A stretch of DNA of 64,000 bases from Enterobacter phage CC31. Of this stretch, positions 3,928 through 61,078 are shown one piece after another. The notes beneath the pieces were generated by a model, which saw only the letters and a program-made list of their open reading frames with translations, had not been told where the DNA came from and ran no database searches. Each line of letters starts with the position of its first letter. Positions within the stretch are counted from its first letter, which is position 1. A program made the position numbers and the translations under genes. The stretch is from the sequence record NC_014662.1. One strand, written 5' to 3'.

Positions 3928-4353
3928 ATGCTGATTGTTCCTGATGAGTACGAAGTCGTACTTGAAAACATCGAAGCAGCTATTCCTGAAGCCGAATCTC
4001 GTTTTAAGCAGTTGTCAGAAGCTCTCGATAAAGCAGACATAAATACAATTGTAGAAAACATGTTGCCAATTGAACCTGAAGTAGCAATTGCTATGGGTTC
4101 ACTGAATGAAGAAATGCAGCTCAATGAATTTATCGTTAAGCATGTTTCTTCTCGTGGAGAAATTACGCGTACTAAAGACCGTAAAACCCGCGAGCGTCAA
4201 GCATTCCAAACAACTGGTTTATCTAAAGCTAAACGTCGCGCTATCGCTCGAAAAGTCGTTAAGTCCAAACGCGCTAATCCGTCTGGTACTGTACGAGGCA
4301 ACCGCAAACGTAAGAAAGCTATGAAACGTCGTCAGGCGTTAGGATTAAGCTAA
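3928..4353 (+). CDS. 68: prohead core protein gp68
   Basis: 141 aa, basic C-terminus, T4 position between 67 and 21. Confidence 0.75.
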
Positions 4354-4994
4354 TGAATGAACCCCAATTACTCATTGAGCATTGGGGTCAACCCGGCGAA
4401 ATTTTGAATGGCGTACCGATGCTTGAGTCATACGATGGCTCAGATGCTGGGCTAAAACCTGGATTATACATCGAAGGCGTGTTCATGCAAGCCGAAGTAG
4501 TTAACCGAAATAAGCGTCTTTATCCAAAGAGAGTGTTGGAAAAAGCCGTAGCTAATTATATTAAAGAGCAGGTTTCTACTAAACAAGCACTTGGAGAATT
4601 AAATCACCCACCACGTGCTAACGTTGACCCGATGCAAGCCGCAATCATCATCGAAGATATGTGGTGGAAAGGAAACGATGTTTATGGACGAGCTCGTATT
4701 ATTGAAGGTGACCACGGTCCTGGAGATAAACTCGCTGCAAACATTCGTGCTGGCTGGATTCCTGGAGTATCTAGTCGTGGACTAGGCTCATTAACGGAAA
4801 CCAATAAAGGCTACCGTATCGTAAACGAAGGATTTAAACTCACCGTTGGCGTTGATGCTGTGTGGGGACCTTCTGCACCAGATGCTTGGGTAACTCCGAA
4901 GCAGATTTCGGAATCCGCTGAGGCGCAAGTCGCCAAAAAGAATGACGATGAGTCATTTAAAGCTCTCGTAGAGAGTCTCGAAAAAGCATTATAA
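4353..4994 (+). CDS. 21: prohead core scaffold protein and protease
   Basis: 213 aa, T4 gp21 length and position. Confidence 0.85.
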   Translation: MNEPQLLIEHWGQPGEILNGVPMLESYDGSDAGLKPGLYIEGVFMQAEVVNRNKRLYPKRVLEKAVANYIKEQVSTKQALGELNHPPRANVDPMQAAIIIEDMWWKGNDVYGRARIIEGDHGPGDKLAANIRAGWIPGVSSRGLGSLTETNKGYRIVNEGFKLTVGVDAVWGPSAPDAWVTPKQISESAEAQVAKKNDDESFKALVESLEKAL

Positions 4995-4997
4995 ATA
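4990..4997 (+). promoter_or_regulatory. late promoter core TATAAATA upstream of gene 22
   Basis: Exact consensus overlapping the gene 21 stop codon. Confidence 0.6.
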
Positions 4998-5027
4998 ATA
5001 ATGTAACTTAACAACAGGACTAACAAA

Positions 5028-5843
5028 ATGCTGAAAGACATCCTGCTCCAGGAAGCTCAGAATATTGAAGCTACCGTAGCTGTGGACAGTATTTTCGAAT
5101 CGGTCGAGCTTTCTCCGGAAGTAAAAGCGAAGTTCGAAACTGTATTCGAAGCAACTGTAAAGAAACATGCCGTTGAACTGGCTGAATCCCACATTACCAA
5201 AATTGCTGAAATGGCTGACGAAAAGCTGAAAGATGCTAAAGACGAAGCCGAAGAAAAAGCTGAAAAGAAACTGACTGAACATGCTTCTCGTTTCTTCAAT
5301 CACATCGCTCAAGAATGGATGAATGAAAACAAACTGGCTGTTGATAAAGGCATCAAAGCTGAACTGTTTGAATCCATGTTCGCTGGTATGAAAGAACTGT
5401 TCGTTGAACACAACGTTGTTCTGCCAGAAGAATCAGTTGATGTAGTTGCTGAAATGGAAGAAGAACTGGCTGAAGCTCGTGAAGAAATCAGCAATCTGTT
5501 CGAAGGTATTTCTGCTCGCGACGAAAAAATTAATACCATGCTGCGTGAAAGCGCTGTAATGGAATCAACTAAAGACTTGACCGACGTTCAGAAAGAGAAA
5601 GTAGCTTCTCTGACCGAAGGTATGGAATATTCCGACGAATTCTCAAGTAAGCTGTCTGCCATCGTCGAAATGGTTAAAGGCTCCGTCGAGAAAGAGGTAG
5701 TAAATGAAAGCATAAATACTACCGACAATGATGCTGACGGTCTCAACTTCATTACTGAAGAACATATTGAGCCAGAAGAAAAAGTATCAAAACAGCCATC
5801 GATGATGGACGCATACGTAGCCTCTGCGGCACGTCTTTCTTAA
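5028..5843 (+). CDS. 22: prohead scaffolding protein
   Basis: 271 aa, highly acidic and helical, T4 gp22-like; late promoter upstream. Confidence 0.85.
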   Translation: MLKDILLQEAQNIEATVAVDSIFESVELSPEVKAKFETVFEATVKKHAVELAESHITKIAEMADEKLKDAKDEAEEKAEKKLTEHASRFFNHIAQEWMNENKLAVDKGIKAELFESMFAGMKELFVEHNVVLPEESVDVVAEMEEELAEAREEISNLFEGISARDEKINTMLRESAVMESTKDLTDVQKEKVASLTEGMEYSDEFSSKLSAIVEMVKGSVEKEVVNESINTTDNDADGLNFITEEHIEPEEKVSKQPSMMDAYVASAARLS

Positions 5844-5865: not shown

Positions 5866-7428
5866 ATGAAAAAGATTAATCCGTTAGTAGAAAAATGGAC
5901 TCCGCTGCTTGAGAACGAAGCACTGCCTGAAATCGTTGGTGCTGGTAAAAAAGCTCTGATTGCAAAAATCATGGAAAACCAGGAATCAGCTATTAAAACT
6001 GAACCTGCATTCCGTGATGAAAAAATCGCTGAAGCATTTGGTTCGTTCCTGACTGAAGCAGAAATTGGTGGTGACCACGGTTATGATGCTCAGAACATCG
6101 CTGCTGGCCAAACCTCTGGTGCAGTAACTCAGATTGGACCAGCTGTTATGGGCATGGTACGTCGTGCAATTCCTAACCTGATTGCTTTCGACATCTGTGG
6201 TGTTCAGCCAATGAGTTCTCCTACCGGTCAGGTATTCGCTCTGCGTGCCGTTTACGGTAAAGACCCTCTGGCTGCTGGTGCTAAAGAAGCATTCCACCCA
6301 ATGTACGCTCCAGATGCAATGTTCTCTGGTCAGGGTGCTGCTGAGAAATTCGCTGCTGTAAAAGCTGCTGACGTTCTGACTGTTGGTACTATCGTAGTTC
6401 ACGATTTCGCTGATGTTGGTCGCGCTTACTTCCAGGTTGCTGAAGGTTTCACAGTAGATGCTGGTGCTACCGATGCTGAAAAACTGGATAAAGCAGTTAA
6501 AGCTGCTGAAGAAGCTGGTCAGCTGGTAGAAATCGCTGAAGGTATGGCTACCTCCGTAGCTGAACTGCAGGAAAACTTCAACGGTTCTACTGATAACCCA
6601 TGGAATGAAATGGGCTTCCGTATCGATAAACAAGTTATCGAAGCTAAATCCCGTCAGCTGAAAGCTCAGTACTCTATTGAACTGGCTCAAGATTTACGTG
6701 CTGTTCACGGTATGGACGCGGATGCTGAACTGTCTGGTATCCTGGCTACCGAAATCATGCTGGAAATCAACCGCGAAGTTGTAGATTGGATTAACTACTC
6801 TGCTCAACTGGGTAAAACCGGTATGACTCAGACTGTTGGTTCTAAAGCTGGTGTATTTGACTTCCAGGACCCAGTAGATATTCGTGGCGCTCGTTGGGCA
6901 GGTGAAAGCTTCAAAGCTCTGCTGTTCCAAATCGACAAAGAAGCTGCTGAAATCGCACGTCAGACTGGTCGTGGTGCTGGTAACTTCATCATCGCTTCTC
7001 GTAACGTAGTTAACGCTCTGGCAGCTGTTGATACTGGCGTTACTCCTGCTGCTCAGGGTCTGGGTCAAGGCTTCAATGCTGATACCACTAAGACTGTGTT
7101 CGCAGGTATTCTGGGCGGTCGTTATAAAGTATACATCGACCAGTACGCTCGTCAGGACTACTTCACCATTGGTTACAAAGGTGCTAACGAGATGGATGCT
7201 GGTATCTACTACGCTCCATACGTTGCTCTGACTCCACTGCGTGGTTCCGACCCTAAAAACTTCCAGCCAGTCATGGGCTTCAAAACCCGTTACGGTATTG
7301 GTATCAACCCGTTTGCTGATAGTGCATCACAGCAGCCGAATGCTCGCATTCAGTCTGGTATGCCTTCTATCGTCAACTCTGTTGGTAAGAACGCGTACTT
7401 CCGTCGCATCTGGGTTAAAGGTCTGTAA
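5866..7428 (+). CDS. 23: major capsid protein
   Basis: 520 aa, close match to recalled T4 gp23; followed by GNRA-loop terminator. Confidence 0.95.
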   Translation: MKKINPLVEKWTPLLENEALPEIVGAGKKALIAKIMENQESAIKTEPAFRDEKIAEAFGSFLTEAEIGGDHGYDAQNIAAGQTSGAVTQIGPAVMGMVRRAIPNLIAFDICGVQPMSSPTGQVFALRAVYGKDPLAAGAKEAFHPMYAPDAMFSGQGAAEKFAAVKAADVLTVGTIVVHDFADVGRAYFQVAEGFTVDAGATDAEKLDKAVKAAEEAGQLVEIAEGMATSVAELQENFNGSTDNPWNEMGFRIDKQVIEAKSRQLKAQYSIELAQDLRAVHGMDADAELSGILATEIMLEINREVVDWINYSAQLGKTGMTQTVGSKAGVFDFQDPVDIRGARWAGESFKALLFQIDKEAAEIARQTGRGAGNFIIASRNVVNALAAVDTGVTPAAQGLGQGFNADTTKTVFAGILGGRYKVYIDQYARQDYFTIGYKGANEMDAGIYYAPYVALTPLRGSDPKNFQPVMGFKTRYGIGINPFADSASQQPNARIQSGMPSIVNSVGKNAYFRRIWVKGL

Positions 7429-7439
7429 TCCAATTAAAT

Positions 7440-7469
7440 GGGAGCCGCAAGGCTCCCATTGTTGTTTCT
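7440..7469 (+). terminator. intrinsic terminator after gene 23
   Basis: GGGAGCC-GCAA-GGCTCCC stem-loop followed by ATTGTTGTTTCT. Confidence 0.7.
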
Positions 7470-7513
7470 ACGGATGATAAATAAAAGTATAATCCACTAG
7501 AGGAAAAGCGACG

Positions 7514-8797
7514 ATGGCTAACATCCATGACCTTCTGCGCGAATCAACTACAACGACGAGTTCAATTTCTGCCCGTCCTAGCCTCGTTGCATTGACTCGC
7601 GCTACTACTAAATTAATTTACTCTGATATTGTAGCTACTCAGCGTACTACTCAACCTACTGCTGCTTTCTACGGTATCAAATATTTGAACCCTAACAAAG
7701 AATTAACGTTCCTTACTGGTGCTACCTACGCAGGTCAAACTGGTACTGAGGACCGTAAATCTATTGAAACATTAACTGCTTCAAATAAAGATTCATTTGG
7801 CAAGGGTGATTTGTTCAAATACGATGACATTGTTTACAAAGTACTTGTAGATAATCCATTTGACCAGATTACTGAAACTGATTTAGAAGTTGTAATTCAG
7901 ATTTCTCTGGTTAAACTCACTACTCGTTTAATGTCTGACGCTGCTATCACTTCCAAGTTTGAAACTGCTGGAGCTGATATCGCTGAAGCTAAATTCCAAA
8001 TTGATAAATGGCAGACTCAAGTTAAATCTCGTAAACTTAAAACGAGCTTGACTGTTGAATTGGCCCAGGACCTTGAAGCTAATGGCTTTGATGCTTCCAA
8101 TTTTATCGATGATTTACTGGCTACTGAAATGGCCGATGAAATTAACAAAGACATTTTACAAAGTCTTGTGACAGTTTCAAAACGATATAAAGTTGAAGGT
8201 ATCACAGATACTGGATTCATCGATTTATCTTATGCATCTGCTCCAGAAGCTGGTCGTTCTCTGTATCGCATGGTATGCGAAATGGTTTCTCATATTCAGC
8301 GCTCAACATCCTTTACGGCAACATTCGCTGTAGCATCTACTCGTGCTGCTGCTGTTCTTGCTGCATCAGGTTGGTTGAAGCATAAACCTGAAGATGATGA
8401 TTATCTGTCACAGAACGCTTATGGTTTCCTGGCAAACGGTTTGCCTCTGTATTGCGATACTAACACTCCACTCGATTATGTAATCGTCGGTGTAGTAGAA
8501 GATATTGGTGATAAAGAAGTTGTATCGAGTATTTTCTATGCTCCATACACTGAAGGTATCGACCTTGATGACCCGGAACACGTTGGTGCATTTAAAGTAA
8601 TTGTTGACCCAGAAAGCTTACAGCCTTCTGTAGCTTTATTCGTTCGTTATGCATTGTCTGCTAACCCGTATACTGTAGCTAAAGATGAAAAGGAAGCTCG
8701 AATCATTGATGGCGGGGATATGGATAAGATGGCAGGACGTTCTGATTTATCAGTTCTTCTTGGTGTTAAGTTACCAAAAATCATCATTGAAGACTAA
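7514..8797 (+). CDS. 24: capsid vertex protein
   Basis: 427 aa, gp23 paralog at the T4 gene 24 position. Confidence 0.9.
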   Translation: MANIHDLLRESTTTTSSISARPSLVALTRATTKLIYSDIVATQRTTQPTAAFYGIKYLNPNKELTFLTGATYAGQTGTEDRKSIETLTASNKDSFGKGDLFKYDDIVYKVLVDNPFDQITETDLEVVIQISLVKLTTRLMSDAAITSKFETAGADIAEAKFQIDKWQTQVKSRKLKTSLTVELAQDLEANGFDASNFIDDLLATEMADEINKDILQSLVTVSKRYKVEGITDTGFIDLSYASAPEAGRSLYRMVCEMVSHIQRSTSFTATFAVASTRAAAVLAASGWLKHKPEDDDYLSQNAYGFLANGLPLYCDTNTPLDYVIVGVVEDIGDKEVVSSIFYAPYTEGIDLDDPEHVGAFKVIVDPESLQPSVALFVRYALSANPYTVAKDEKEARIIDGGDMDKMAGRSDLSVLLGVKLPKIIIED

Positions 8798-8803
8798 AAG
8801 AAA

Positions 8804-8826
8804 GGGAACCTCACGGTTCCCTTTTG
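8804..8826 (+). terminator. intrinsic terminator after gene 24
   Basis: GGGAACC-TCAC-GGTTCCC followed by TTTTG. Confidence 0.7.
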
Positions 8827-8829
8827 TAG

Positions 8830-9375
8830 TTATAAAGCAAATATATCGAATGTTGGTGCGTATTTTTCTTTAAATCTCTGATAGATTTCTTTCTCGTACA
8901 GATTGTAGCAAGGTATACCATGACGCTTGGCTATATCAACGGCCACTCGTGTCCCTCCAGTAACGCTAGAGAGTTTTATTGGAGCATAGAATAGTACCAT
9001 ATCCACAGGTGACTGGCAATCCTCTCCGAGCACCTGAAGTGCATTGCGGGCAAATAGAGTCTTCACTATATCCCGGCACTCATCCCAGTAGCTTGTCACT
9101 TCTCTTGCTTTAATTACACTCCTGATTCTCACTTCATTTGGAAAGTCTTTCCACACCTTTACTCCAACTCCAGTTTTAAGACCATTGAAGCCTTCGTATG
9201 GTATGATACGTAATGAACGTTCACGGTCGTATCTACTGAGCCATGATTCATCTGCACCAGGAGCACCTCCCGAATACGAAAAATGGCCTGACTCCGAAAG
9301 AGCCTGACCAGTTAATGACATGACATCTAAAACACGACGTGGCGTCTCTCGAGAACCGATTAACGCCAAACGCAT
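8830..9375 (-). CDS. conserved protein with DprA/Smf-like Rossmann (SLOG-type) motifs
   Basis: 181 aa; motifs IGSRETP ... SGGAPGADESW ... SSVTGGTRVAVDIA resemble the DprA/Smf nucleotide-binding fold; convergent with gene 24. Confidence 0.6.
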   Translation of the reverse strand: MRLALIGSRETPRRVLDVMSLTGQALSESGHFSYSGGAPGADESWLSRYDRERSLRIIPYEGFNGLKTGVGVKVWKDFPNEVRIRSVIKAREVTSYWDECRDIVKTLFARNALQVLGEDCQSPVDMVLFYAPIKLSSVTGGTRVAVDIAKRHGIPCYNLYEKEIYQRFKEKYAPTFDIFAL

Positions 9376-51260: not shown

Positions 51261-51268
51261 TATAAATA
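51261..51268 (+). promoter_or_regulatory. late promoter core TATAAATA upstream of gene 34
   Basis: Exact consensus 30 nt upstream of the gene 34 ATG. Confidence 0.65.
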
Positions 51269-51298: not shown

Positions 51299-54200
51299 AT
51301 GGCAGATTCAATCAAACGCAAGTTTCGTGGCGCTGAAGGCTTCGATGCTGCGGGTGAAAAAATAGTCAACGTTGCTACTGCTGACCGCACGGTGTTATCC
51401 GATGGCGTCAACGTTGAATTCCTTATACAAGAAAACACATTACAACAATATGATGAAACACGTGGCTACACTTCTGGCTTCGCAGTAATTTACGACAACC
51501 GTATTTGGGTTTCAAATCGTGATATTGCAAAACCTGCCGGTGCATTCAACGAACTCTTCTGGAACTCAGTACGTACTGACGCCAAGTGGCGAGTAGTTTC
51601 AAGCGGAACCACTACTCTGAAATCAGGTGAATTCATTTCAGTCGACACCAATAAAGGTAACGACATGGTATTCACTCTGCCGAATAACCCACAAGACGGC
51701 GATACAATTATGCTGAAGGATATCGGGAACAAAACCGGTACTGTAGGCGTAGTTATTAACGCATCAGTACAAGATATCGTTCTGCGTGACCCTACGAATA
51801 AAGTTCGTTCTGTTCGTATGACTCATCCGTTGTCTCAGTACGTGTTTGTGTTCAGTAACAGATTGTGGAACCTTTACGTTTCAGATTACGCTCGTTATGC
51901 TCGCATTGTAACTCCAAGTGCAGTTGTACAAGCACAATCAAACGACTTTATCGTTCGTCGCTATACTTCTCCAGGTCCAATTCGTATCACTTTACCTAAG
52001 TTTGCGAATACCGGAGATATTATCAACTTTACTGACCTTGATGGAAAGAACCCTCAATTCCACATGATTGTTAGTACTTTTGATGATAACACTAACATCG
52101 GTACTGTTGGTCAAAAATCAGTAGAAGTTCGTACTTCAGGCGACGGATTCATCGTATATGATGCTTCAGAATCTATCTGGAGAATCTGGGAAGGTGATTT
52201 ACGCCCACGTATGCGTATCATCACTGATAACGTAACTTTAATTCCAAACGATGTTGTTACTGTTTTTGGTGTAAATAACACTACCCAGAAAACTATTGAC
52301 ATCACTTTGCCTACTGATATTGCTGTTGGTGATACCGTCACTATCGCAATGAATTATATGCGCAAAGGCCAAAAGGTAAATATCAGAGCAGCTACTGGAG
52401 ACAAAATTGCTTCAAGTCTTCAATTACTGCAATTCCCTAAACGCTCAGAGTATACGCCTGATGCAGCTTGGGTAATGAATGATGTTCTTACTTTCGACGG
52501 CACTACTTCTTATGTTCCAGTGCTTCAGTTATCTTATATTGAAAATGCTGGTTCAAAATACTGGATTGTAGCAGATAATGCTCCGACGGTAGAACGTGTT
52601 GATTCAAAAGATAATGAAACTCGTAAGCGTCTTGGTGTTATTGCTCTTGCTTCTCAAGCTCAAGCTAACGTTGATTATGAAAATAGTCCAGAAAAAGAAT
52701 TAGCAATTACTCCAGAGACTTTAGCAAACCGTATTGCTACCAAGATTCGTCGTGGTATTGCTCGTCTGGTCACATTAACTGAAATTCAGGCTCCAACTTC
52801 TGGTCCGCATCTGGATGATGTTATTGTTACTCCAGCTATGCTGAATGAAAAAACAGCTACTGAAGAAAGACGCGGTGTTGCTGAAACCGCTACTCAGGCT
52901 GAAGCAAATGGTTCAACTGATGATGAAAGAATTGTTACTCCGAAGAAGCTGCATAACCGTATTGCTTCTGAGACGTTGACTGGTATTCTTAAATTAGTAA
53001 GAACTGTTGGAACTGCGGCGGGTATTGGACGAGATACGAAAGGTACTAACATTTATGACTATGATAACAACATTGATGCGGTAACTCCAAAATCACTGTT
53101 CCAATTCAAGTCTACTGAGCAAGCTCAGGGCGCTGTTTATCTGGCTACTCAAAACGAAGTAATTGCTGGTGGTCCAGCTCAACCTGGTTTCCCAGTCGTT
53201 GTTACTCCACAAACGCTTCACGGTAAAACTTCAACTGATTCAAGAATCGGTTTGATTCAAATTGCTAAACAAGCTGAAGTAGATGCTGGCACAGATTACA
53301 CAAAAGCAGTTACTCCTAAAACTCTGAATGACCGTAAGGCTCGTGAAGATTTAAGTGGTATTGCTGAAATTGCAACTCAAGCTGAATTTGATACTGGAAC
53401 AGACGATACTCGTATCGTAACTCCATTAAAGGTTAAAACTCGTTTCAATTCAACCGATAGAACATCTGTTGTTGCTCTGTCTGGATTAGTTGAGCAAGGA
53501 ACCTTGTGGGACCATTATACATTAGATATCAAAGAAGCATCTGAGACCCAGCGTGGTACCGCTGCTCTGGCTACTCAAGTACAAGTTGATGCTGGCACTG
53601 ATGATAAGACGATTGTTACGCCTAAGAAATTACAGGCTAAGAAAGCGACTGAGACTACCGAAGGTATTATCCAAGTTGCTAACCAAACTGAAACTGTAGC
53701 CGGCACCATCGCTATTAAAGCAGTTTCTCCGAAGAACTTGAAGTATATTGCTCAGGAAGAAAAAACTTGGGAATCTACTATAGCTCGTCGTGGTTTTGTT
53801 AAATTGTCAGAAAAAGCACTTACCTTTAAAGGGGATGCTACTAATGGTTCTGGCCGTCTGCTTCCAGGTGACTTAATCAACGAACCTGCTTTGACAGATT
53901 TGCCTAAAGAAGGATATGCAGTATCTCCATATGAGATGAACCGTGCGCTGCAATACTTCTTACCGGCTAAAGCGAAAGCTGTTGATTCTGATTTGCTTGA
54001 TGGACTTGATTCAACTCAGTTTGTACGCCGTGATATCGACCAAGTAGTTAATGGTAAAATTACGTTCAAAAAGGATGTTACTCTAGAAGCTCCTCTGGTG
54101 TCCTCTAGTACGGCCAAGTTCACTACCGTGAATGCTACTATATCTGTTGATATTGGTGACACCCTGGGTAATTCTAGAATCAATTTGAATACTCTGGCGA

Positions 54201-55093
54201 ATGGTTGGAACATCGAGACGCTGGCGAATGGTTCAACTCTTGATTTTACTGCCGTAGATAAAGTTCTGACACTTAATCGTAATGGAAACGTAACGGTTGC
54301 TCAGACTCTGACTGCAATGAACAAAGTTGATGCTAGTAAGGGCTTTTCAGTCGAAGGTGGTACAATGGTTATCAATCCTTCCTCTACTGAAATTGTCATT
54401 GGTACTCAATCTAAGCAAGTAACACTGCAGAACAAAGATGCTAAGACATTCTCAGTTGTAGACCCTTCTGGTACTTACACCATTCTGAATACCAAGAATG
54501 CTTTTGAAATAACGGCTCAAGGGTTCGTTAAGAAAGCTGGTGATTCAATGACTGGACCACTTCAAATTCAAGCTCCATTAACTGTTCAGATTCCTGAAGG
54601 ACGAGTTGCTCCTGATGTTAAACCATCAGATGATAACCCAGCTTCATGGTCTGCATCAATTACCACAGCAACGATTTACAATAAGTTGCCTGGTTATGGT
54701 GTTCCAGTTATGGAAAAAGATTCTGAAGGACAAGATACTGGTTTCGTAGACCATTACGAATATGTTAAAGGTCCTGGTGTATTAACTCAACATGGTATTG
54801 GTAAGACTGCGGTCTATCAAATTTGGGCACCTCGCCCAACAGTTCAAGAGTTAAACCACAATGCTCAGACTTTCTGGATTCGTAACTTCAACATTGTAAC
54901 TAATGATTGGGACGAATGGGGTAAGATGTACACCTCAGTTCAGAGACCTACTGCAGGCGAAATTGGTGCTGTATCAACTTCTGGTTCGGCTTTCAATAAC
55001 TTAACAATTCGCGACTGGTTACAAATTAAGAACGTTCGTATTGTTCCTAATGAAACCACTCGTACTGTTGACTTCATTTGGGTTGATGAATAA
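51299..55093 (+). CDS. 34: long tail fibre proximal subunit
   Basis: 1264 aa; N-terminal region and repeated TPKKL/TPKTL motifs match recalled T4 gp34; late promoter upstream. Confidence 0.9.
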   Translation: MADSIKRKFRGAEGFDAAGEKIVNVATADRTVLSDGVNVEFLIQENTLQQYDETRGYTSGFAVIYDNRIWVSNRDIAKPAGAFNELFWNSVRTDAKWRVVSSGTTTLKSGEFISVDTNKGNDMVFTLPNNPQDGDTIMLKDIGNKTGTVGVVINASVQDIVLRDPTNKVRSVRMTHPLSQYVFVFSNRLWNLYVSDYARYARIVTPSAVVQAQSNDFIVRRYTSPGPIRITLPKFANTGDIINFTDLDGKNPQFHMIVSTFDDNTNIGTVGQKSVEVRTSGDGFIVYDASESIWRIWEGDLRPRMRIITDNVTLIPNDVVTVFGVNNTTQKTIDITLPTDIAVGDTVTIAMNYMRKGQKVNIRAATGDKIASSLQLLQFPKRSEYTPDAAWVMNDVLTFDGTTSYVPVLQLSYIENAGSKYWIVADNAPTVERVDSKDNETRKRLGVIALASQAQANVDYENSPEKELAITPETLANRIATKIRRGIARLVTLTEIQAPTSGPHLDDVIVTPAMLNEKTATEERRGVAETATQAEANGSTDDERIVTPKKLHNRIASETLTGILKLVRTVGTAAGIGRDTKGTNIYDYDNNIDAVTPKSLFQFKSTEQAQGAVYLATQNEVIAGGPAQPGFPVVVTPQTLHGKTSTDSRIGLIQIAKQAEVDAGTDYTKAVTPKTLNDRKAREDLSGIAEIATQAEFDTGTDDTRIVTPLKVKTRFNSTDRTSVVALSGLVEQGTLWDHYTLDIKEASETQRGTAALATQVQVDAGTDDKTIVTPKKLQAKKATETTEGIIQVANQTETVAGTIAIKAVSPKNLKYIAQEEKTWESTIARRGFVKLSEKALTFKGDATNGSGRLLPGDLINEPALTDLPKEGYAVSPYEMNRALQYFLPAKAKAVDSDLLDGLDSTQFVRRDIDQVVNGKITFKKDVTLEAPLVSSSTAKFTTVNATISVDIGDTLGNSRINLNTLANGWNIETLANGSTLDFTAVDKVLTLNRNGNVTVAQTLTAMNKVDASKGFSVEGGTMVINPSSTEIVIGTQSKQVTLQNKDAKTFSVVDPSGTYTILNTKNAFEITAQGFVKKAGDSMTGPLQIQAPLTVQIPEGRVAPDVKPSDDNPASWSASITTATIYNKLPGYGVPVMEKDSEGQDTGFVDHYEYVKGPGVLTQHGIGKTAVYQIWAPRPTVQELNHNAQTFWIRNFNIVTNDWDEWGKMYTSVQRPTAGEIGAVSTSGSAFNNLTIRDWLQIKNVRIVPNETTRTVDFIWVDE

Positions 55094-56241
55094 TGGCTAA
55101 AATGATGGCGAGTTTTGGACAAGGATTTGTCCAAACTCAAGTTCTTTCTGAGAACAATTCCGTCAAGTATAAGCTAGCATTTGCGGCAGGGGTAGCTCAG
55201 TCTACCCCTTCTGAAGCTTATTATACTTTCCAGGATGAACCTGCTGGGGTTCAATATGACGGCCCAGGTATAAACCTGAGAGAATTTAATCCAGCAACTA
55301 ATCAAATGCTTAACTTCAAAACTTTTAATTTAAATCCTGAAGACGCAAACGCGGCTACTAAAGCATTTGTGCAACATATGCAAACCCTCCCGGCTTCTGA
55401 TAATTTGCTTATCATTACATCATATGAGAGGCTTTATTCAAGCCCTTCTGTAGATGCTTTGATGAAATCTCTTGGTTCAGTTATGTGGCCAAGTATATTT
55501 CTTACTACAAATTATGGATGCAATTACTGTGCTTTGTACTCTATTAGAAGAAAGAAAATAATTGCTGAAAACACAACATATTCAGATTTCAAAAAAGAGA
55601 ATAGAGACATACGTCCAGCTTTAGAATTCATTTATGATAAAGCAAATGATATCGGAGCTACTGGATATTCACAAAAAGCTATTGATGATTCAAACACATA
55701 TATCATTGATAAAGATAATCCAAGTAAAAGATTTCCGCAGCAGCTTGAGCAAATATCTCCAATAAATCAATACGGAATTGCTCCTGGAGATAAAATGCAG
55801 TGGAACTTTGAAGTAAAAGGAGATTCTTCTTTAACAGCTCCAGGACAAAACATTAGAGTAAATCTTCGTTGGTTCCAAGGCACTTCATATCTTTCTGGAG
55901 CAGTAGTTGAAACACAACCGACTGACGCAGATAAATGGATGTGGCACCAGAGATATGTAACCGTTCCTGATAATGCTGATGGATTTACAATAATTGCTTC
56001 TCGTTATCCAGAAGTAGCTGGTTCTGAAGGAAGCGGTGCTATTCGTGAAATGATGCTCACTCAAGTATCGAGAGCTGTAGAACCTCTTATGGACCCGGCT
56101 GGATTTGGTGTAAACGGAATCAGAATGAACAATATGATTTCTGATGGTGTAGATGAAAATACACTGTTAGTTCTTCCTGATACAGAAGACGATAAATCTG
56201 GTAATATCTACTCGGCTGACTTCAGAGAGTATAATGACTAA
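55093..56241 (+). CDS. 35: long tail fibre hinge connector gp35
   Basis: 382 aa, ATGA overlap with gene 34, T4 position. Confidence 0.8.
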   Translation: MAKMMASFGQGFVQTQVLSENNSVKYKLAFAAGVAQSTPSEAYYTFQDEPAGVQYDGPGINLREFNPATNQMLNFKTFNLNPEDANAATKAFVQHMQTLPASDNLLIITSYERLYSSPSVDALMKSLGSVMWPSIFLTTNYGCNYCALYSIRRKKIIAENTTYSDFKKENRDIRPALEFIYDKANDIGATGYSQKAIDDSNTYIIDKDNPSKRFPQQLEQISPINQYGIAPGDKMQWNFEVKGDSSLTAPGQNIRVNLRWFQGTSYLSGAVVETQPTDADKWMWHQRYVTVPDNADGFTIIASRYPEVAGSEGSGAIREMMLTQVSRAVEPLMDPAGFGVNGIRMNNMISDGVDENTLLVLPDTEDDKSGNIYSADFREYND

Positions 56242-56300
56242 AGCCCTTCGGGGCTTTTGTTGTTTCTGAATAAATACAACAAACATATAAGGGGAAGGCC

Positions 56301-56954
56301 ATGGCTGATTTAAAAGCTAACAGTACAATTGGCGGATTACCGATTTGGCACCAGGGGAGTTTCCCTCTTTTTCCAATAAACGATACTCTGCTTTACAAGA
56401 CTTATAAAGTCTACACAGAATATGATAAGCCACAAGCTGCAGATAACGACTTCGTTTCTAAAGCTAATGGCGGCATTTATGCAAAACCAGTTCAATTCAG
56501 TCAGGGATTAACTTTCCTGGATGATAAAGGAGCGACTGTTACAATAGGCAAAGCCACTGGAACAGCTGGAGCAACTTATACTGCTTCAATCAAAGTTCCT
56601 GCTCAATTTGCTTTTGAGACTGGCGAAGGCAAACCATTTGTAATTTTTGACCCAGTAACTGACATGACTAAGCCTCGTCTTGTTGTAATGGGAGATGTCT
56701 TAGGCAAGTTTTTATACGACGAAGCTGGTCGAGTTTATTCACCTGGAAATAAGCCAAATAACGTTGACGTTGGTTTAGGAAATGTAAGTAATGACGCCCA
56801 GGTGAAAATAAATACAACTACGTTACAAACAATGGCTGGTCCATTGGCTGCACCGAACTTAAGTTCTTTAAACGCAGCTTCTGCACCACAACACGTTCCA
56901 CGTTTTGACCAGATTGTCGTAAGAGACTCTATTCAAGATTTCGGAACCTATTGA
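56301..56954 (+). CDS. 36: long tail fibre distal connector gp36
   Basis: 217 aa, T4 position. Confidence 0.8.
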   Translation: MADLKANSTIGGLPIWHQGSFPLFPINDTLLYKTYKVYTEYDKPQAADNDFVSKANGGIYAKPVQFSQGLTFLDDKGATVTIGKATGTAGATYTASIKVPAQFAFETGEGKPFVIFDPVTDMTKPRLVVMGDVLGKFLYDEAGRVYSPGNKPNNVDVGLGNVSNDAQVKINTTTLQTMAGPLAAPNLSSLNAASAPQHVPRFDQIVVRDSIQDFGTY

Positions 56955-56961
56955 GGAATTT

Positions 56962-59574
56962 ATGGCAACTATCAAACAAATTCAATTTAAGCGTTCTAAC
57001 GTTGCTGGTAAAAGACCGCTTCCAGCTGATATCGCTGAAGGCGAATTAGCAATTAATATCAAGGATTCGACTTTATTCACTAAGAACGCTGATGGGCAAA
57101 TCATTGACCTCGGTTTTGCAAAAGGCGGCAGAATCGACGGTGACGTTGTACAAGTAGGTAATTATACTCAGACCGGTAATTACATTACTTCTGGTGATGT
57201 CAGTGCTAAAACTATTTTAGCCTCAGCAGGTGTTTCATCAAATGGTGATATTGTTGCTGAAAGAGGCGTAATTCGAACTCGTGCTGCTTCTTCAGGCAAC
57301 GCTCATTTGTGGTTTGAAGGCGAAGAAATTACAGGTGAAAACCGTAATAAAGAACGTGGTGTTTTATATGCTACCCAACAAACAGATACAGATGGGCGAG
57401 TAAACCTTCGAGTTTACAATGGTAAAGCCCACGCGGCTAATACAAACAACGCGCTGTTCGTGTTTAACGGTGCCGGGGATTTCGCGGCTCCTAAAGATTT
57501 GTATGGCCAGCGCTCTCGTTTAAGTATTGAGTCTATAGCCCCAGTAATGAATACAAATCGCCTTTTAACGGCGAATAAACCATTCGCAAACCAAGTGTAT
57601 AGCTTTGATGATATAGTCAATTATAAAGCCGGCGAGAATGGCGCTCTTGCGTTAAACTATGTGTACAAAGGCCGGGCGCATCAGACCGGCACGATTTGGC
57701 ATCATTTAATCGACGAACGCGAAGCTCCTGAATGGGCTCTTTATACTGGTTCGGGTCCAGCAAATAAAATGTTCGCGATTCGTTCAGTTGGTACATTAGG
57801 ACATGCTCAATTCACTGGTAGCTTATTCTTAGGTTCTGGTAGCAGTGGAACTGGTTTTGTATCTGGAATGGGTGAAGGTTCTTTAGCATTGGGTGATAAT
57901 GATACTGGTTTCCGTAACGATGGCGACGGGATGTTTAGTGTAATGGCTAACTCTCGGGCTCTTGTTAATTATAATGCTTCAGCCCCGAAGTTCCAAATTG
58001 AGCACAGAAAAGCTACTAGAATCACCCACACTGATAATACAAACACAACTATTCTTCCAAGTAACAACAATTCTTTATTGGAAATTGACACTTCGTTAGA
58101 TGGAAATAATGCTGGTGGAAACGGGTTAACTCTTTTAGGTTATATTTCAAGCGGAAAATATTATCATTATTTCAGAGGTTCTGGATATGTAGCTTATGAT
58201 ATGGATGAAGGCGTTAAAATTAATAAAGGTGGCTTGAATGTAGGCGGTAATACATCTATAACAGGAAATACTTATGTAACTGGCGCTGTTACATCAAATG
58301 GACAGTTTAAAACTTCCGCAAATGATGGTTTAAAAATTTGGAATGGCGATTATGGTATGATACTGCGTCGTTCTGAAAATAACTTTTATCTTATCCCAAC
58401 TGCGCAAGGTCAAGCCGAAAATGGTGGTATTAGTAATTTGCGCCCGTTTTATATTGATTGTGCTACCGGCAACGCTACTTTAGGACATAACGTAACAATT
58501 AATGGCCAATCTACGTTAAATGGCAACGTTACTTTAGGTTCGGGTCAAATTAACTTGCTTGGGGGTTCAGGTAATATTGGATTTGCAAAAGCAGGTACAA
58601 GCCCTTATTCAATGCGAATTTTCTATGCTGGGAATACTGAACGTGGCAACAGACTAGAAATAGCTGATGATTCGTCTTATTTGATGTATATTGAACGTCA
58701 TCCATCTATAGGTATTCAATTAGTTACTAATGGTGGTCACATAAAAACTAATGCTGGTAGCGTTTATACTGAAGCTATAGCGTTAAATAGCGGTGCAAGA
58801 TTTGTGGCTGATGGAAACATTTATTTACCAAATGCTACTAACGGATTTTCTGCTGGTTGGGTATTAGGTCAAATTAACAGCCGTCTTAACGCTGCTGTTC
58901 AAAAATCTGGCGATACCATGACTGGTACCTTGACTATTAACAACGGTGCAAACACTGGTGTAATGGTTTCTGGTATTACATCTGGTAGTGATAAAGGATT
59001 AATACGAGGTAACGTCGACGGTGGCGCTCATGATCAATGGGAAAACCGTTCTTCTGGTCTTCAATTAGATTGCCCGAGTTCCGATGATAGCGCATATAAC
59101 GTATGGAAAGCAACTAAATGGGGAGCTTATCATATTGCTGCAATGGACGTTTATGCTCCAAGTGGTAATGGTTATGTTCGCTTAGTTATTCGTAACGGCG
59201 GAGCCCACATTTGGAATAACAGCAGTTATACTTCTCCAGTGCAGATTAATGCTCCAGAATTTTATCTGACTTCAGATATTTCGTTGAAGAAAGATATTCG
59301 TTCAATCGAAGATTCTCGTTCTAACTTGCATAAAGTTGAAATTAAACGATATGCAATGAAAGATGGTTCTAACGATAATGCAATCGGTGTTATTGCACAA
59401 GAAGTTCAAGAAGTTTATCCAGAACTTGTTAATGAAAATAAAGACACTGGCAAATTATCTGTTAACTATCGTGGACTTTCTTCTGTTCTTTGGAAAATTG
59501 TTCAAGAGCAAGATAAAGAATTGGAAGATGTTAAATCTCGTTTAGCTCGCATTGAAGAACTTTTGTCTAAATAA
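56962..59574 (+). CDS. 37: long tail fibre distal subunit gp37 with C-terminal intramolecular-chaperone-like domain
   Basis: 870 aa; C-terminal ~100 aa (SDISLKKDI...VIAQEVQEVYPELV...RLARIEELL) resembles self-cleaving chaperone domains of other fibres. Confidence 0.8.
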   Translation: MATIKQIQFKRSNVAGKRPLPADIAEGELAINIKDSTLFTKNADGQIIDLGFAKGGRIDGDVVQVGNYTQTGNYITSGDVSAKTILASAGVSSNGDIVAERGVIRTRAASSGNAHLWFEGEEITGENRNKERGVLYATQQTDTDGRVNLRVYNGKAHAANTNNALFVFNGAGDFAAPKDLYGQRSRLSIESIAPVMNTNRLLTANKPFANQVYSFDDIVNYKAGENGALALNYVYKGRAHQTGTIWHHLIDEREAPEWALYTGSGPANKMFAIRSVGTLGHAQFTGSLFLGSGSSGTGFVSGMGEGSLALGDNDTGFRNDGDGMFSVMANSRALVNYNASAPKFQIEHRKATRITHTDNTNTTILPSNNNSLLEIDTSLDGNNAGGNGLTLLGYISSGKYYHYFRGSGYVAYDMDEGVKINKGGLNVGGNTSITGNTYVTGAVTSNGQFKTSANDGLKIWNGDYGMILRRSENNFYLIPTAQGQAENGGISNLRPFYIDCATGNATLGHNVTINGQSTLNGNVTLGSGQINLLGGSGNIGFAKAGTSPYSMRIFYAGNTERGNRLEIADDSSYLMYIERHPSIGIQLVTNGGHIKTNAGSVYTEAIALNSGARFVADGNIYLPNATNGFSAGWVLGQINSRLNAAVQKSGDTMTGTLTINNGANTGVMVSGITSGSDKGLIRGNVDGGAHDQWENRSSGLQLDCPSSDDSAYNVWKATKWGAYHIAAMDVYAPSGNGYVRLVIRNGGAHIWNNSSYTSPVQINAPEFYLTSDISLKKDIRSIEDSRSNLHKVEIKRYAMKDGSNDNAIGVIAQEVQEVYPELVNENKDTGKLSVNYRGLSSVLWKIVQEQDKELEDVKSRLARIEELLSK

Positions 59575-59579
59575 TTTAA

Positions 59580-59593
59580 GGGCCTTCGGGCCC
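59580..59593 (+). terminator. GC hairpin GGGCCTTCGGGCCC after gene 37
   Basis: Identical to the hairpin after gene 19; no clean U-run. Confidence 0.4.
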
Positions 59594-59607
59594 TAGAGGA
59601 TTTTTAT

Positions 59608-60393
59608 ATGGCTATAGCTGGTCCTAATATTGGGACATCATGGTTTAGAGAAACCGGTCAAAGACCGATGTCTGCCGCTCGAGTGGCAGTAAGACTTCCG
59701 GCAAGACCTGGAGGCGCTCGACAAATGGTTGGCTTATCTAAAGAAGTAAATTATAACATCGGCGCAAATAACTCTTACAATAAAGACACATTAATTAACT
59801 ACTTACGCTCTCAAGGCTCAACACCTGTAGTTGTTACTATCACTGGTAATTTAGTAAGTTATAGTTCTGGTGTAGCATGTCTTGAATTTCCGGCTAATTT
59901 ACCAAATGCTTATGTACATCTCATTATAAATGGCGGTGTTACTCTTTATGGAAGAGGAGGTAACGGTGGCGTTAAAGGGAATGGAGCTGCAGGCGGTCAT
60001 GCTATTAACAACCAATTTGGTACTCGTCTTCGTATTACAAATAACGGTGCAATAGCAGGCGGTGGTGGTGGAGGTGGAGGAAACTCTGCTAATGGTGGTA
60101 TGGGTGGTGGTGGTAGACCATTTGGTTATGCCGATAAAACACATCCGCCTGCTGCAGCTACTTCACGTGCTGCTACTGATGGTACTTTAACATCTCCAGG
60201 TATTGGTGCTGAATATAAAATTGGTACTGCAGTTCAATATACTTGTGGTTCTGGTGGTAATGTTGGAGCAAATGGTGGTGCATCTACAGGAAGGTTAGGA
60301 ACAAACTATGGAGGCGGATCTGCCGGTAGAGCTGTTATAGGTAATGCTCCTACATGGAATAAAGTTGGTACCATTTATGGGTCACGAGTTTAA
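59608..60393 (+). CDS. 38: T2-type receptor-binding adhesin gp38 with glycine-rich motifs
   Basis: 261 aa; several poly-Gly/GxG segments separated by variable segments. Confidence 0.75.
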   Translation: MAIAGPNIGTSWFRETGQRPMSAARVAVRLPARPGGARQMVGLSKEVNYNIGANNSYNKDTLINYLRSQGSTPVVVTITGNLVSYSSGVACLEFPANLPNAYVHLIINGGVTLYGRGGNGGVKGNGAAGGHAINNQFGTRLRITNNGAIAGGGGGGGGNSANGGMGGGGRPFGYADKTHPPAAATSRAATDGTLTSPGIGAEYKIGTAVQYTCGSGGNVGANGGASTGRLGTNYGGGSAGRAVIGNAPTWNKVGTIYGSRV

Positions 60394-60421
60394 ACATAAA
60401 TACCCTTGAAAAGGAGGGTAT

Positions 60422-61078
60422 ATGACCCAGAGAACACCACTACCAGGAATATCTGACATTTTATTTGGTGTTCTAGACAGACTCTTCAAAGATAACGCAA
60501 CCGGGAGGGTACTTGCTTCCCGGATTGTTGCTCTGATAGTTGTTTTCATTCTTTCGCTTACATGGTATCGCTTGGATGCTATAATGCAAGTATGGAAAGA
60601 GTCTCGTTATGAGACTTACACTAAAGTTTTGCAACAAGATAAAGAGGCTAAATTTGAAGCATCAGCTCTAGAACAACTACAGATAGCTCACGTTTCGAGC
60701 AATGCAGATTTTTCCGCAATTTACTCATTTAGACCACGCAACTTAAACTACTTTGTGGATTTAATTGCATATGAAGGGCGACTGCCTAGCACAGTCAACG
60801 AAAAAAATTTGGGAGGATTTCCAGTTGATAAGACTTCGAACGAATATTCTGCTCATTTGAGAGGTGCATATTTCTCTTCTGAGGATGAATTTGTTTTCTT
60901 ACCGACTAAGAAAAAGGATGGGGAGTTGAAGTACATGTACTCGTGCCCGTATTTCAACCTGGACAACGTTTATGCCGGGACAGTTTCCATGTACTGGTAT
61001 AGCAAACCACTCTTAAATGAAAATAGATTGGCCGCAATTTGTAGTCAAGCTGCTAGAACTTTAGGAAGAGCCAAGTAA
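60422..61078 (+). CDS. t: holin
   Basis: 218 aa; SDILFGVLDRLFKDNATG..VLASR and C-terminal YMYSCPYFNLDN match recalled T4 holin. Confidence 0.9.
   Translation: MTQRTPLPGISDILFGVLDRLFKDNATGRVLASRIVALIVVFILSLTWYRLDAIMQVWKESRYETYTKVLQQDKEAKFEASALEQLQIAHVSSNADFSAIYSFRPRNLNYFVDLIAYEGRLPSTVNEKNLGGFPVDKTSNEYSAHLRGAYFSSEDEFVFLPTKKKDGELKYMYSCPYFNLDNVYAGTVSMYWYSKPLLNENRLAAICSQAARTLGRAK

What the first reader, a model, noticed from the sequence alone, without database searches (positions are those of the whole stretch)
59270..60393. Receptor-recognition module is T2-type: gp37 with a C-terminal chaperone-like domain plus glycine-rich gp38 adhesin
The gp37 C-terminus (about 100 aa, SDISLKKDI...AQEVQEVYPELV...RLARIEELL) resembles self-cleaving intramolecular chaperone domains of other phage fibres. 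gp38 is about 261 aa with several poly-glycine motifs separated by variable segments, including a run of 8 consecutive Gly encoded by repetitive GGT/GGA codons (about 60060-60085). The variable segments are the likely host-range determinants, and the repetitive codon tracts are recombination and slippage hot spots.
Basis: partly seen in the sequence, partly recalled or inferred. Interest (0 to 1): 0.45.

Follow-up and report, generated by a model that had tools for sequence, protein, structure and literature searches.

The report
T2-type phage tail-fibre tip: gp37 plus gp38 adhesin
This is the ordinary, well-described receptor-binding tip of a T2/S16-type T-even phage: a fibre protein with a self-cleaving C-terminal folding domain, capped by a glycine-rich adhesin. 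It sits here in a new Enterobacter-type (Karamvirus) phage whose adhesin gene is a recombinant.

Summary

**Locus.** The window carries a Karamvirus-like long-tail-fibre operon: genes 34, 35, 36, 37, 38 and t.

**gp37 (870 aa).** It ends in a 100-aa Peptidase_S74 intramolecular-chaperone domain (aa 771-870, window 59272-59571). The Ser771/Lys776 dyad is intact. The predicted cut is EFYLT^SDISLK.

**gp38 (261 aa).**
- It matches Pfam GP38 adhesin at 1.6e-74.
- It aligns end to end with the S16 gp38 crystal chain (1e-43).
- Its AlphaFold model (pLDDT 91.5) matches only the S16 and PP01 gp38 structures.
- It has no similarity to the T4 gp38 chaperone (E = 60).
- The 8-Gly run (60058-60081) aligns with the run the S16 authors call PGII helix 3.

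**One sub-claim is not supported.** The Gly-codon tract does not look like a slippage hot spot. Its columns have no indels in 110 homologues. The mapped recombination breakpoints lie elsewhere.

**What is new is modest.**
- The module is a mosaic. Window 58816-60377 is 99.3% identical to phage EnA02.
- EnA02 carries two tandem gp38 genes. The window's single gene fuses the body of copy 1 to the last 16 nt of copy 2.
- The Karamvirus-type attachment domain lacks the three tryptophan "prongs" of S16 gp38.

The parts
56962..59574 (+). gene 37, distal long-tail-fibre subunit (870 aa). The N-terminal ~575 aa are homologous to T4 gp37; the C-terminal part is not T4-like.
   Evidence: ORF. BLASTP to T4 gp37: 33% identity over aa 1-575, nothing beyond. 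Pfam Gp34_trimer at aa 398-498 and Peptidase_S74 at aa 771-823.
59272..59571 (+). gp37 C-terminal intramolecular chaperone (IMC, Peptidase_S74) domain, aa 771-870. Predicted to be removed by autoproteolysis.
   Evidence: Pfam 4.2e-12. Aligns with the S16 gp37 IMC. AlphaFold model has pLDDT about 90 over the domain. Foldseek matches MyRF ICA 7DC3 (prob 1.0, TM 0.69) and 3GW6.
59269..59289 (+). Predicted autocleavage site Thr770^Ser771, with the Ser771 (59272-59274) / Lys776 (59287-59289) dyad in the motif SDISLK.
   Evidence: Ser, Asp and Lys(+5) are invariant in the 14-sequence alignment A3 and conserved in all 18 S74 sequences of a second alignment. The motif aligns with the published S16 site DLNVS^SDRRIKK (PMC7917993).
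59579..59594 (+). GGGCC-TTCG-GGCCC hairpin in the 33-nt spacer between genes 37 and 38. The gp38 ribosome-binding site GAGG follows it.
   Evidence: Sequence and fold. The fold is not significantly better than shuffles (z = -1.0), so its function is inferred only.
59608..60393 (+). gene 38, monomeric receptor-recognising adhesin (261 aa).
   Evidence: Pfam GP38 1.6e-74. 6F45_D 1e-43 and PP01 gp38 9V85 8e-30. AlphaFold pLDDT 91.5. Foldseek finds only gp38 structures.
59608..59742 (+). gp38 N-terminal attachment domain (aa 1-45, three short helices), Karamvirus subtype without the three Trp prongs.
   Evidence: Pfam Gp38_N 2e-8. Helices at aa 8-16, 21-27 and 37-40 in the model. S16 W7/W20/W36 align with N7/P20/G36.
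59743..59946 (+). First part of the gp38 central beta-helix domain (aa 46-113).
   Evidence: Alignment to S16 gp38. Strands in the model.
59947..60345 (+). Glycine-rich motif / hypervariable segment region (aa 114-246), predicted to form the polyglycine-II sandwich. It includes two beta-helix rungs at aa 131-150.
   Evidence: Conservation profile of 110 homologues. Fold match to 6F45_D and 9V85.
60058..60081 (+). Run of 8 Gly (aa 151-158). By alignment it equals S16 151-GGGGGGGG-158, which its authors call PGII helix 3.
   Evidence: PMC6851490.
60082..60102 (+). Hypervariable segment 1 (NSANGGM).
   Evidence: High entropy and gaps in the family alignment.
60127..60186 (+). Hypervariable segment 2 (YADKTHPPAAATSRAATDGT), at the long end of the family range.
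60205..60246 (+). Hypervariable segment 3 (GAEYKIGTAVQYTC). The model predicts a beta-hairpin at aa 202-212.
60280..60309 (+). Hypervariable segment 4 (ASTGRLGTNY).
58816..58849 (+). 5' recombination boundary. Upstream, the window is KaAlpha/Pet-CM3-4-like and differs from EnA02 about once every 4-5 nt. Downstream it is 99.3% identical to EnA02.
   Evidence: Mismatch list and sliding identity.
60372..60377 (+). 3' crossover inside the conserved C-terminal motif (TAAAGTTGGTA[C/A]CATTTA). To the left the window follows EnA02 gp38 copy 1. From 60378 it follows EnA02 gp38 copy 2 and gene t.
   Evidence: Four-way alignment and mismatch list.
60395..60421 (+). CATAAATA box (60395-60402), resembling a T4 late promoter, overlapping a 7-bp hairpin (60400-60421) that pairs with the Shine-Dalgarno sequence of holin gene t.
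   Evidence: Fold -11 kcal/mol, z = -2.7. T4 has an exact TATAAATA at the equivalent place. Function is inferred.
60422..61078 (+). gene t (holin), the downstream neighbour that fixes the synteny 34-35-36-37-38-t.
   Evidence: Pfam Phage_holin_T 1.3e-77. Same gene order in T4 and in the Karamvirus records.

Best explanation
The region encodes the distal tip of a T2/S16-type long tail fibre in a Karamvirus-like phage. Proposed mechanism:

1. gp37 trimerises with the help of its own C-terminal 100-aa intramolecular chaperone.
2. That chaperone then cuts itself off between Thr770 and Ser771, using the Ser771/Lys776 dyad.
3. The new gp37 end is the docking surface for one monomer of gp38, which attaches through its three-helix N-terminal domain.
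4. The gp38 glycine-rich motifs pack into a polyglycine-II sandwich. The 8-Gly run aligns with the S16 run designated PGII helix 3.
5. The hypervariable loops between the motifs contact the host receptor.

The gene pair is also a recombinant cassette.
- The 3' third of gene 37 plus gene 38 are almost identical to phage EnA02.
- The rest of gene 37 resembles KaAlpha and Pet-CM3-4.
- The last 16 nt of gene 38 come from a second, resident-type gp38 gene.
- The simplest origin is a deletion between two tandem gp38 genes of an EnA02-like ancestor.

Shown here: homology, fold, conserved catalytic residues, and mosaic boundaries. Inferred: actual cleavage, 3:1 stoichiometry, the receptor, and the direction of the recombination event.
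For: - **Synteny and ORFs:**
- **gp38 as adhesin:** Pfam GP38 1.6e-74 plus Gp38_N. S16 gp38 6F45_D at 1e-43 over the full length and PP01 gp38 at 8e-30. AlphaFold pLDDT 91.5, matching only 6F45_D (TM 0.79/0.83) and 9V85. 163 homologues with E <= 1e-10, named 'receptor-recognizing protein' where a source names them.
- **gp37 chaperone:** Pfam S74 4.2e-12. The SD...K motif is conserved in all 18 aligned domains. Fold match to MyRF ICA and 3GW6. The published S16 cleavage site aligns (PMC7917993).
- **Not T4-type:**
- **Conserved/variable pattern:**
- **Mosaic and crossover:**
- **Karamvirus precedent:** in Pet-CM3-4, point mutations in the gp38 variable segments change host range (PMC10194368).
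Against: - No experimental data exist for this phage; cleavage and gp38 attachment are inferred by homology.
- The three tryptophans described as the attachment prongs of S16 gp38 are absent (N7, P20, G36). The docking chemistry must therefore differ from the solved complex.
- The mature gp37 tip upstream of the cut resembles S16 only weakly (about 24 aa).
- The direction of the tandem-to-single gp38 event rests on parsimony alone.
Confidence: 0.93

Rival explanations
1. T4-type arrangement: gp38 is only an assembly chaperone that is not kept in the virion, and the gp37 C-terminus itself binds the receptor.
For: The gene order 37-38-t is the same as in T4. The gp37 N-terminal 575 aa are homologous to T4 gp37.
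Against: No similarity to T4 gp38 (E = 60). The gp37 C-terminal 295 aa do not align with T4 gp37 and instead end in an S74 chaperone domain. gp38 matches the adhesin family and its structures.
Confidence: 0.01
2. The gp37 C-terminal domain is a degenerate, non-cleaving relic, and gp38 attaches in another way. The loss of the Trp prongs could hint at this.
For: The three S16 tryptophans are missing. The mature gp37 tip is only weakly S16-like.
Against: The Ser/Asp/Lys catalytic motif and the IAQEV core are conserved. The domain and the residues before the cut are nearly invariant across five Karamvirus phages whose gp38 bodies differ by about 50%, which indicates purifying selection on a working module. 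Trojet et al. describe several matched gp37-tip/gp38-N-terminus subtypes as a lock-and-key pair (PMC3157838).
Confidence: 0.04
3. The glycine codon tracts, rather than the flanking conserved segments, are the sites where slippage and recombination diversify this adhesin.
For: Published crosses place exchanges in or near conserved motifs, including the glycine-rich ones (Tetart 1998, cited in PMC3157838). There is a weak GGTGGA x3.3 repeat and five imperfect 20-nt Gly-codon repeats. The window and EnA02 differ by one synonymous change inside the run (60066).
Against: The poly-G columns show no gaps in 110 homologues; the longest G-run varies only between mostly 7 and 9. Codons are mixed, and the longest perfect triplet repeat is (GGT)3. 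The mapped breakpoints are at 58816-58849, about 59697 and 60372-60377, none in a Gly run.
Confidence: 0.15

Closest known systems
Salmonella phage S16 gp37-gp38 adhesin tip (PDB 6F45; Dunne et al. 2018)
   Same: The domain order of gp38 is the same: attachment domain, beta-helix, polyglycine sandwich. An 8-Gly run sits at the same residue numbers (151-158). gp37 has a self-cleaving S74 chaperone with the SDxxxK motif. The sequence match is 1e-43 and the model TM-score is 0.79/0.83.
   Different: Identity is only about 41%. The three Trp prongs (W7, W20, W36) are replaced by N7, P20 and G36. Hypervariable segments 2 and 3 are longer (22 and 15 residues between anchors, against 17 and 10). The mature gp37 tip is largely dissimilar. 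The chaperone is 100 aa against 113 aa. The receptor is unknown, whereas S16 uses OmpC.
Enterobacter phage EnA02 (PQ096440), first of its two gp38 genes (EnA02_0267, annotated 'hypothetical protein')
   Same: 98.9% amino-acid identity. Window 58816-60377 is 99.3% identical at the DNA level, and gene t is nearly identical.
   Different: EnA02 has a 181-nt spacer and a second, resident-type gp38 gene before t; the window has one gene. The window's last 16 nt and C-terminal ...YGSRV come from the copy-2 type. Upstream of 58816, gene 37 differs strongly.
Karamvirus gp38 adhesins (Pet-CM3-4, KaAlpha, PG7); Pet-CM3-4 binds LPS (PMC10194368)
   Same: Same genus-level genome backbone (93-95% DNA identity over 25 kb). 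Same gp37 tip and chaperone. Same Trp-less type of attachment domain.
   Different: The gp38 body is only 51-59% identical. The glycine/hypervariable region is instead 85% identical to uncharacterised adhesins that carry a Trp-type N-terminus (P0002, P0003). The module therefore crosses lineage boundaries.
T2 / T6 / PP01 gp37-gp38 (classical T2-type; Drexler 1986, Riede 1987, Trojet 2011)
   Same: gp37 is processed at the C-terminus and capped by an adhesin of about 260 aa, built from glycine-rich motifs and four hypervariable segments. PP01 gp38 matches at 8e-30, with TM 0.86 on the target.
   Different: About 43-45% identity. The attachment-domain subtype differs, and the host genus differs.
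Intramolecular chaperone domains of K1F endosialidase (3GW6) and MyRF (7DC3), Pfam Peptidase_S74
   Same: The Ser-Lys motif, the conserved IAQEV core and a long C-terminal helix are shared. The fold match to 7DC3 has TM 0.69.
   Different: The preceding fibre domain is different. The match to 3GW6 is weak (E about 0.3) because the monomer model cannot reproduce the trimeric arrangement.

Membership tests
T2/S16-type gp38 adhesin (Pfam PF05268 + PF21721) | Sequence membership above the curated Pfam thresholds | tested here: met
   GP38 at 250.9 bits (cut-off 25). Gp38_N at 34.5 bits (cut-off 25).
T2/S16-type gp38 adhesin (Pfam PF05268 + PF21721) | Three-domain fold: N-terminal helical attachment domain, beta-helix, polyglycine-II sandwich | tested here: met
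   AlphaFold model with pLDDT 91.5. Foldseek finds 6F45_D (E 1e-20, TM 0.79/0.83) and 9V85, with nothing else below E = 1. The model coordinates were not inspected helix by helix.
T2/S16-type gp38 adhesin (Pfam PF05268 + PF21721) | Conserved glycine-rich motifs alternating with hypervariable segments | tested here: met
   Conservation, entropy and gap profile over 110 homologues. Segment lengths fall within the family range.
T2/S16-type gp38 adhesin (Pfam PF05268 + PF21721) | Three conserved Trp 'prongs' in the attachment domain that insert into gp37 pockets (as described for S16) | tested here: not met
   The aligned positions are N7, P20 and G36. 29 of 110 homologues share this Trp-poor Karamvirus subtype. 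This is a feature of the S16/T2 subtypes, not of the Pfam family.
T2/S16-type gp38 adhesin (Pfam PF05268 + PF21721) | Present in the virion at the fibre tip; determines receptor and host range | not testable with these tools
   Needs virion proteomics, adsorption assays and variable-segment swaps. A precedent exists in the Karamvirus Pet-CM3-4 (PMC10194368).
Peptidase_S74 intramolecular chaperone (gp37 C-terminus) | Sequence membership above the Pfam threshold | tested here: met
   46.6 bits against a cut-off of 22, aa 771-823.
Peptidase_S74 intramolecular chaperone (gp37 C-terminus) | Catalytic Ser and Lys (+5) at the start of the domain | tested here: met
   Ser771 and Lys776. Both are invariant in alignment A3 and conserved in the 18-sequence alignment.
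Peptidase_S74 intramolecular chaperone (gp37 C-terminus) | Fold of solved intramolecular chaperone domains | tested here: met
   7DC3 MyRF ICA, prob 1.0, TM 0.69. 3GW6 is weaker. The alignment behind the model has only 14 sequences.
Peptidase_S74 intramolecular chaperone (gp37 C-terminus) | Autoproteolytic release after trimerisation | not testable with these tools
   Needs a western blot or mass spectrometry of virion gp37, or expression of wild type against S771A.
T4-type gp38 assembly chaperone | Sequence similarity to T4 gp38 (183 aa) | tested here: not met
   BLASTP E = 60.
T4-type gp37 with a receptor-binding C-terminal tip | Similarity to the T4 gp37 C-terminal region | tested here: not met
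   The alignment to T4 gp37 stops at window aa ~575. Nothing significant follows.

The most novel reading that the evidence does not exclude
The window's single gp38 is the survivor of a two-adhesin stage. An EnA02-like ancestor carried two tandem gp38 genes with the same Trp-less docking domain, so that one virion could mount two kinds of fibre tip. That would fit EnA02's published dual dependence on a wcaJ-dependent glycan and on OmpW. A 16-nt-scale crossover in the conserved 3' motif then deleted the resident copy. The window phage would be left with only the imported adhesin and therefore a narrowed or switched receptor use. Tandem gp38 genes as a route to dual-receptor T-even phages did not turn up in the papers I could search.
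Probability: 0.2. Interest if true: 0.5.

Novelty: new member of a known kind. Interest (0 to 1): 0.17.

Why it matters
For annotation, this settles that the locus is a T2/S16-type receptor module. Host range of this phage should be sought in gp38 (window 59947-60345), not in gp37. That matters for anyone using Enterobacter/Klebsiella Karamvirus phages therapeutically. The nearly identical protein in the therapeutic phage EnA02 is still annotated 'hypothetical protein'.

Scientifically the architecture adds nothing new. Three smaller points may be useful:
- the precisely mapped natural crossover in the conserved 3' motif;
- the existence of relatives with two tandem gp38 genes;
- the Trp-less docking subtype.

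These bear on adhesin engineering and on how gp37 tips and gp38 N-termini co-vary.

Tried and rejected
- **T4-type reading.** Direct BLASTP against T4 gp38 and gp37 rejected it.
- **Slippage.** TRF and repeat searches found only weak, imperfect Gly-codon repeats. The family alignment shows no indels in the poly-G columns. Rejected as unsupported.
- **Donor of the adhesin body.** The closest outside relative is P0002 (85% amino-acid identity in the glycine/hypervariable region). Its contig (L007) is only 72% identical at the DNA level and shares no flanks, so it is not the direct donor.
- **gp37 C-terminus protein search.** The word-indexed search returned only 11 hits and missed the obvious Karamvirus gp37 proteins. 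I took those from the phage records instead.
- **Receptor prediction by similarity.** Adhesins with known receptors are only 35-50% identical, with different variable segments: S16 and PP01 use OmpC, Pet-CM3-4 uses LPS, and RB51/RB68 use OmpF/OmpW. No call is possible.
- **Exact-sequence look-up.** The window's gp38 is not in the public collection.
- **Hairpin between genes 37 and 38.** It folds no better than shuffled sequence (z = -1.0), so no function is claimed.
Full report
**1. What is at the coordinates**

ORF listing shows a co-linear + strand block:
- gene 34: 51299-55093, 1264 aa
- gene 35: 55093-56241
- gene 36: 56301-56954
- gene 37: 56962-59574, 870 aa
- gene 38: 59608-60393, 261 aa
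- holin gene t: 60422-61078 (Pfam Phage_holin_T 1.3e-77)

This is the T-even long-tail-fibre operon order, identical to T4 and to Karamvirus records. A 25-kb stretch upstream is 93-95% identical to the Karamvirus phages KaAlpha, UFV01 and PG7. No record in that collection matched it above 95%.

The quoted peptides are there, and SDISLKKDI starts at Ser771 (59272). gp38 has 57 Gly in 261 residues. The 8-Gly run is aa 151-158, window 60058-60081, encoded GGC GGT GGT GGT GGA GGT GGA GGA.

**2. gp38 is the adhesin type, not the T4 chaperone type**

- Pfam gives GP38 'phage tail fibre adhesin' at 1.6e-74 (aa 46-261) and Gp38_N at 2e-8 (aa 1-37).
- A search of PDB sequences aligns aa 1-259 with the S16 gp38 crystal chain 6F45_D (1e-43). 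It aligns aa 42-261 with PP01 gp38 (9V85, 8e-30).
- An AlphaFold2 model built on 94 homologues has mean pLDDT 91.5.
- Foldseek against the PDB returns only 6F45_D (E 1e-20, TM 0.79/0.83) and 9V85. Every other hit has E > 1.
- BLASTP against the T4 gp38 chaperone finds nothing (E = 60).
- A protein search found 163 homologues at E <= 1e-10. Those that a source names are mostly called 'receptor-recognizing protein'.

**3. Anatomy of gp38**

I aligned 110 full-length homologues together with S16. The alignment shows the published pattern of conserved glycine-rich motifs and hypervariable segments (PMC3157838, PMC12032242).
- Conserved: YGRGGNGG, GG, GAIAGGGGGGGG, GGGGRPFG, SPG.G, GSGGNVGANGG, GGGSAGRAV.GNAPTW..VG.IYGSRV.
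- Variable: VKGNGAA (aa 122-128), NSANGGM (159-165), YADKTHPPAAATSRAATDGT (174-193), GAEYKIGTAVQYTC (200-213), ASTGRLGTNY (225-234).

The 8-Gly run aligns residue for residue with S16 151-GGGGGGGG-158, which its authors describe as PGII helix 3 (PMC6851490). The run is therefore a structural requirement, not an oddity. The lengths of the variable segments lie within the family range; segment 2 is at the long end.

**4. The gp37 C-terminus is a self-cleaving intramolecular chaperone**

- Pfam Peptidase_S74 matches aa 771-823 (4.2e-12, 46.6 bits against a cut-off of 22).
- The segment aligns with the chaperone part of the S16 gp37 construct 6F45_A.
- In alignments with Karamvirus, S16, 8JOV and metagenomic S74 domains, the Ser, Asp and Lys(+5) of SDxxxK and the IAQEV core are conserved. 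Here these are Ser771 and Lys776.
- The published S16 cut is DLNVS^SDRRIKK (PMC7917993), so the predicted cut here is EFYLT^SDISLKKDI. This would remove 100 residues.
- A model of aa 740-870 has pLDDT about 90 over the domain. It matches the MyRF ICA domain 7DC3 (prob 1.0, TM 0.69) and, more weakly, the K1F endosialidase chaperone 3GW6.
- T4 gp37 aligns only with aa 1-575.
- C-terminal processing of T2 gp37 has been known since Drexler et al. 1986 (cited in PMC3157838).

**5. The slippage and recombination sub-claim**

Tandem Repeats Finder reports only GGTGGA x3.3 with score 33. The repeat finder reports five imperfect 20-nt Gly-codon copies. In the 110-sequence alignment the poly-G columns contain no gaps. 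The longest G-run is 7, 8 or 9 in 105 of 110 sequences, which fits substitution at the flanks rather than indels. I therefore find no support for slippage.

Recombination is real, but I mapped it elsewhere.
- Against KaAlpha, VPA32, KMB19 and Pet-CM3-4, DNA similarity of about 88% runs through gene 37 and the first 90 nt of gene 38, then collapses at window ~59697.
- Against EnA02, mismatches occur every 4-5 nt up to 58815. After that there are only 11 in 58816-60377, which is 99.3% identity.
- At the 3' end the window follows EnA02 gp38 copy 1 up to 60371. From 60378 onward it follows copy 2 and gene t, with no mismatch until 60901. The crossover lies in TAAAGTTGGTA[C/A]CATTTA.

At the protein level the modules have different nearest relatives.
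- The attachment domain is closest to Karamvirus types (67-69%).
- The glycine/hypervariable region is 85% identical to P0002 and P0003, which carry a Trp-type N-terminus.

This matches the modular shuffling described by Tetart 1998 and Trojet 2011.

**6. Differences from the solved S16 complex**

The three tryptophans reported to plug gp38 into gp37 (PMC6851490, PMC7917993) align with N7, P20 and G36 here. The resident Karamvirus type has N7, A20 and R36. In all, 29 of 110 homologues belong to this Trp-poor subtype.

The gp37 residues before the cut and the chaperone are nearly invariant in five Karamvirus phages, although their gp38 bodies are only about 50% identical. This fits the 'lock-and-key' subtypes of Trojet et al. 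(PMC3157838). It looks like a further docking subtype rather than a new mechanism. The interface itself could not be modelled, because only monomer prediction was available.

**7. Side observation on relatives**

EnA02 and an independent Logan contig carry two tandem gp38 genes separated by a 181- or 154-nt spacer. Among 664 phage records with a gp38 match, only EnA02 shows two places.

EnA02 is published as depending on two surface factors: a wcaJ-dependent glycan and OmpW (PMC12578640). A search of that paper's text found no mention of gp38 or adhesin. OmpW is already a documented gp38 receptor in RB68 (bioRxiv 10.64898/2026.04.02.716166).

The window's chimeric 3' end is most simply explained by a deletion between the two copies of such a tandem. 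This is an inference from parsimony.

**8. Verdict**

The system is the well-known T2/S16-type tip, already recognised in Karamvirus (PMC10194368). The specific protein is a new allele. The mosaic junctions and the Trp-less docking subtype are minor additions. Interest is low.

Noticed in passing
L001 (EnA02, PQ096440) 7285-8070 and 8252-9034; L006 (Logan ERR11525548_464) 4001-4786 and 4941-5723: Two tandem gp38 adhesin genes in close relatives of the window phage. Only 1 of 664 gp38-bearing phage records shows this. EnA02 is published as depending on two surface factors (wcaJ-dependent glycan and OmpW), and a text search of that paper found no mention of gp38.
   Followed up: partly
L001 8071-8251 and L006 4787-4940: The spacer between the two gp38 genes holds a long inverted repeat (TTCCGCTTGGGAAT...ATTCCCAAGCGG). 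It also holds a GC-rich 27-nt unit (CCGCCGCGCGACGAAGCTATCACTCCG) present twice in EnA02 and once in the Logan contig. The composition is foreign-looking for an AT-rich phage.
   Followed up: no
window 60395-60421: A CATAAATA box sits where T4 has an exact late-promoter TATAAATA before gene t. It overlaps a 7-bp hairpin (ATACCCT/AGGGTAT, -11 kcal/mol, z -2.7) that pairs with the Shine-Dalgarno sequence of t. A late transcript starting inside the hairpin would free the ribosome-binding site. T4 itself lacks the hairpin.
   Followed up: partly
window 59579-59594 and 56240-56257: GC-rich UUCG-tetraloop hairpins lie directly after the stop codons of gene 37 and gene 35. The second is followed by a T-run and scored as terminator-like. 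Neither folds significantly better than shuffled sequence.
   Followed up: partly
window 59608-59742 (gp38 aa 1-45): The Karamvirus-type attachment domain lacks all three Trp residues described as the gp37-docking prongs of S16 gp38. The window and EnA02 copy-1 variant has a Trp at a different position (W12).
   Followed up: partly
window 51261-51268 and 56268-56275: An exact T4 late-promoter consensus TATAAATA lies 30 nt upstream of the gene 34 start. A one-mismatch version (AATAAATA) lies upstream of gene 36. The motif occurs 13 times in the window against 3.7 expected.
   Followed up: no
window 58153-58455 (gp37 aa 398-498): gp37 contains a domain matching Pfam Gp34_trimer and the solved T4 gp34 C-terminal region (1e-9). 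It is a module shared between the proximal and distal fibre subunits.
   Followed up: no
L005 (Escherichia phage AV108, Krischvirus) 4001-4777: A gp38 adhesin that is 58% identical to the window's sits far from any gene 37 and is annotated 'tail assembly'. This is the displaced gp38 position known for Krischvirus.
   Followed up: no
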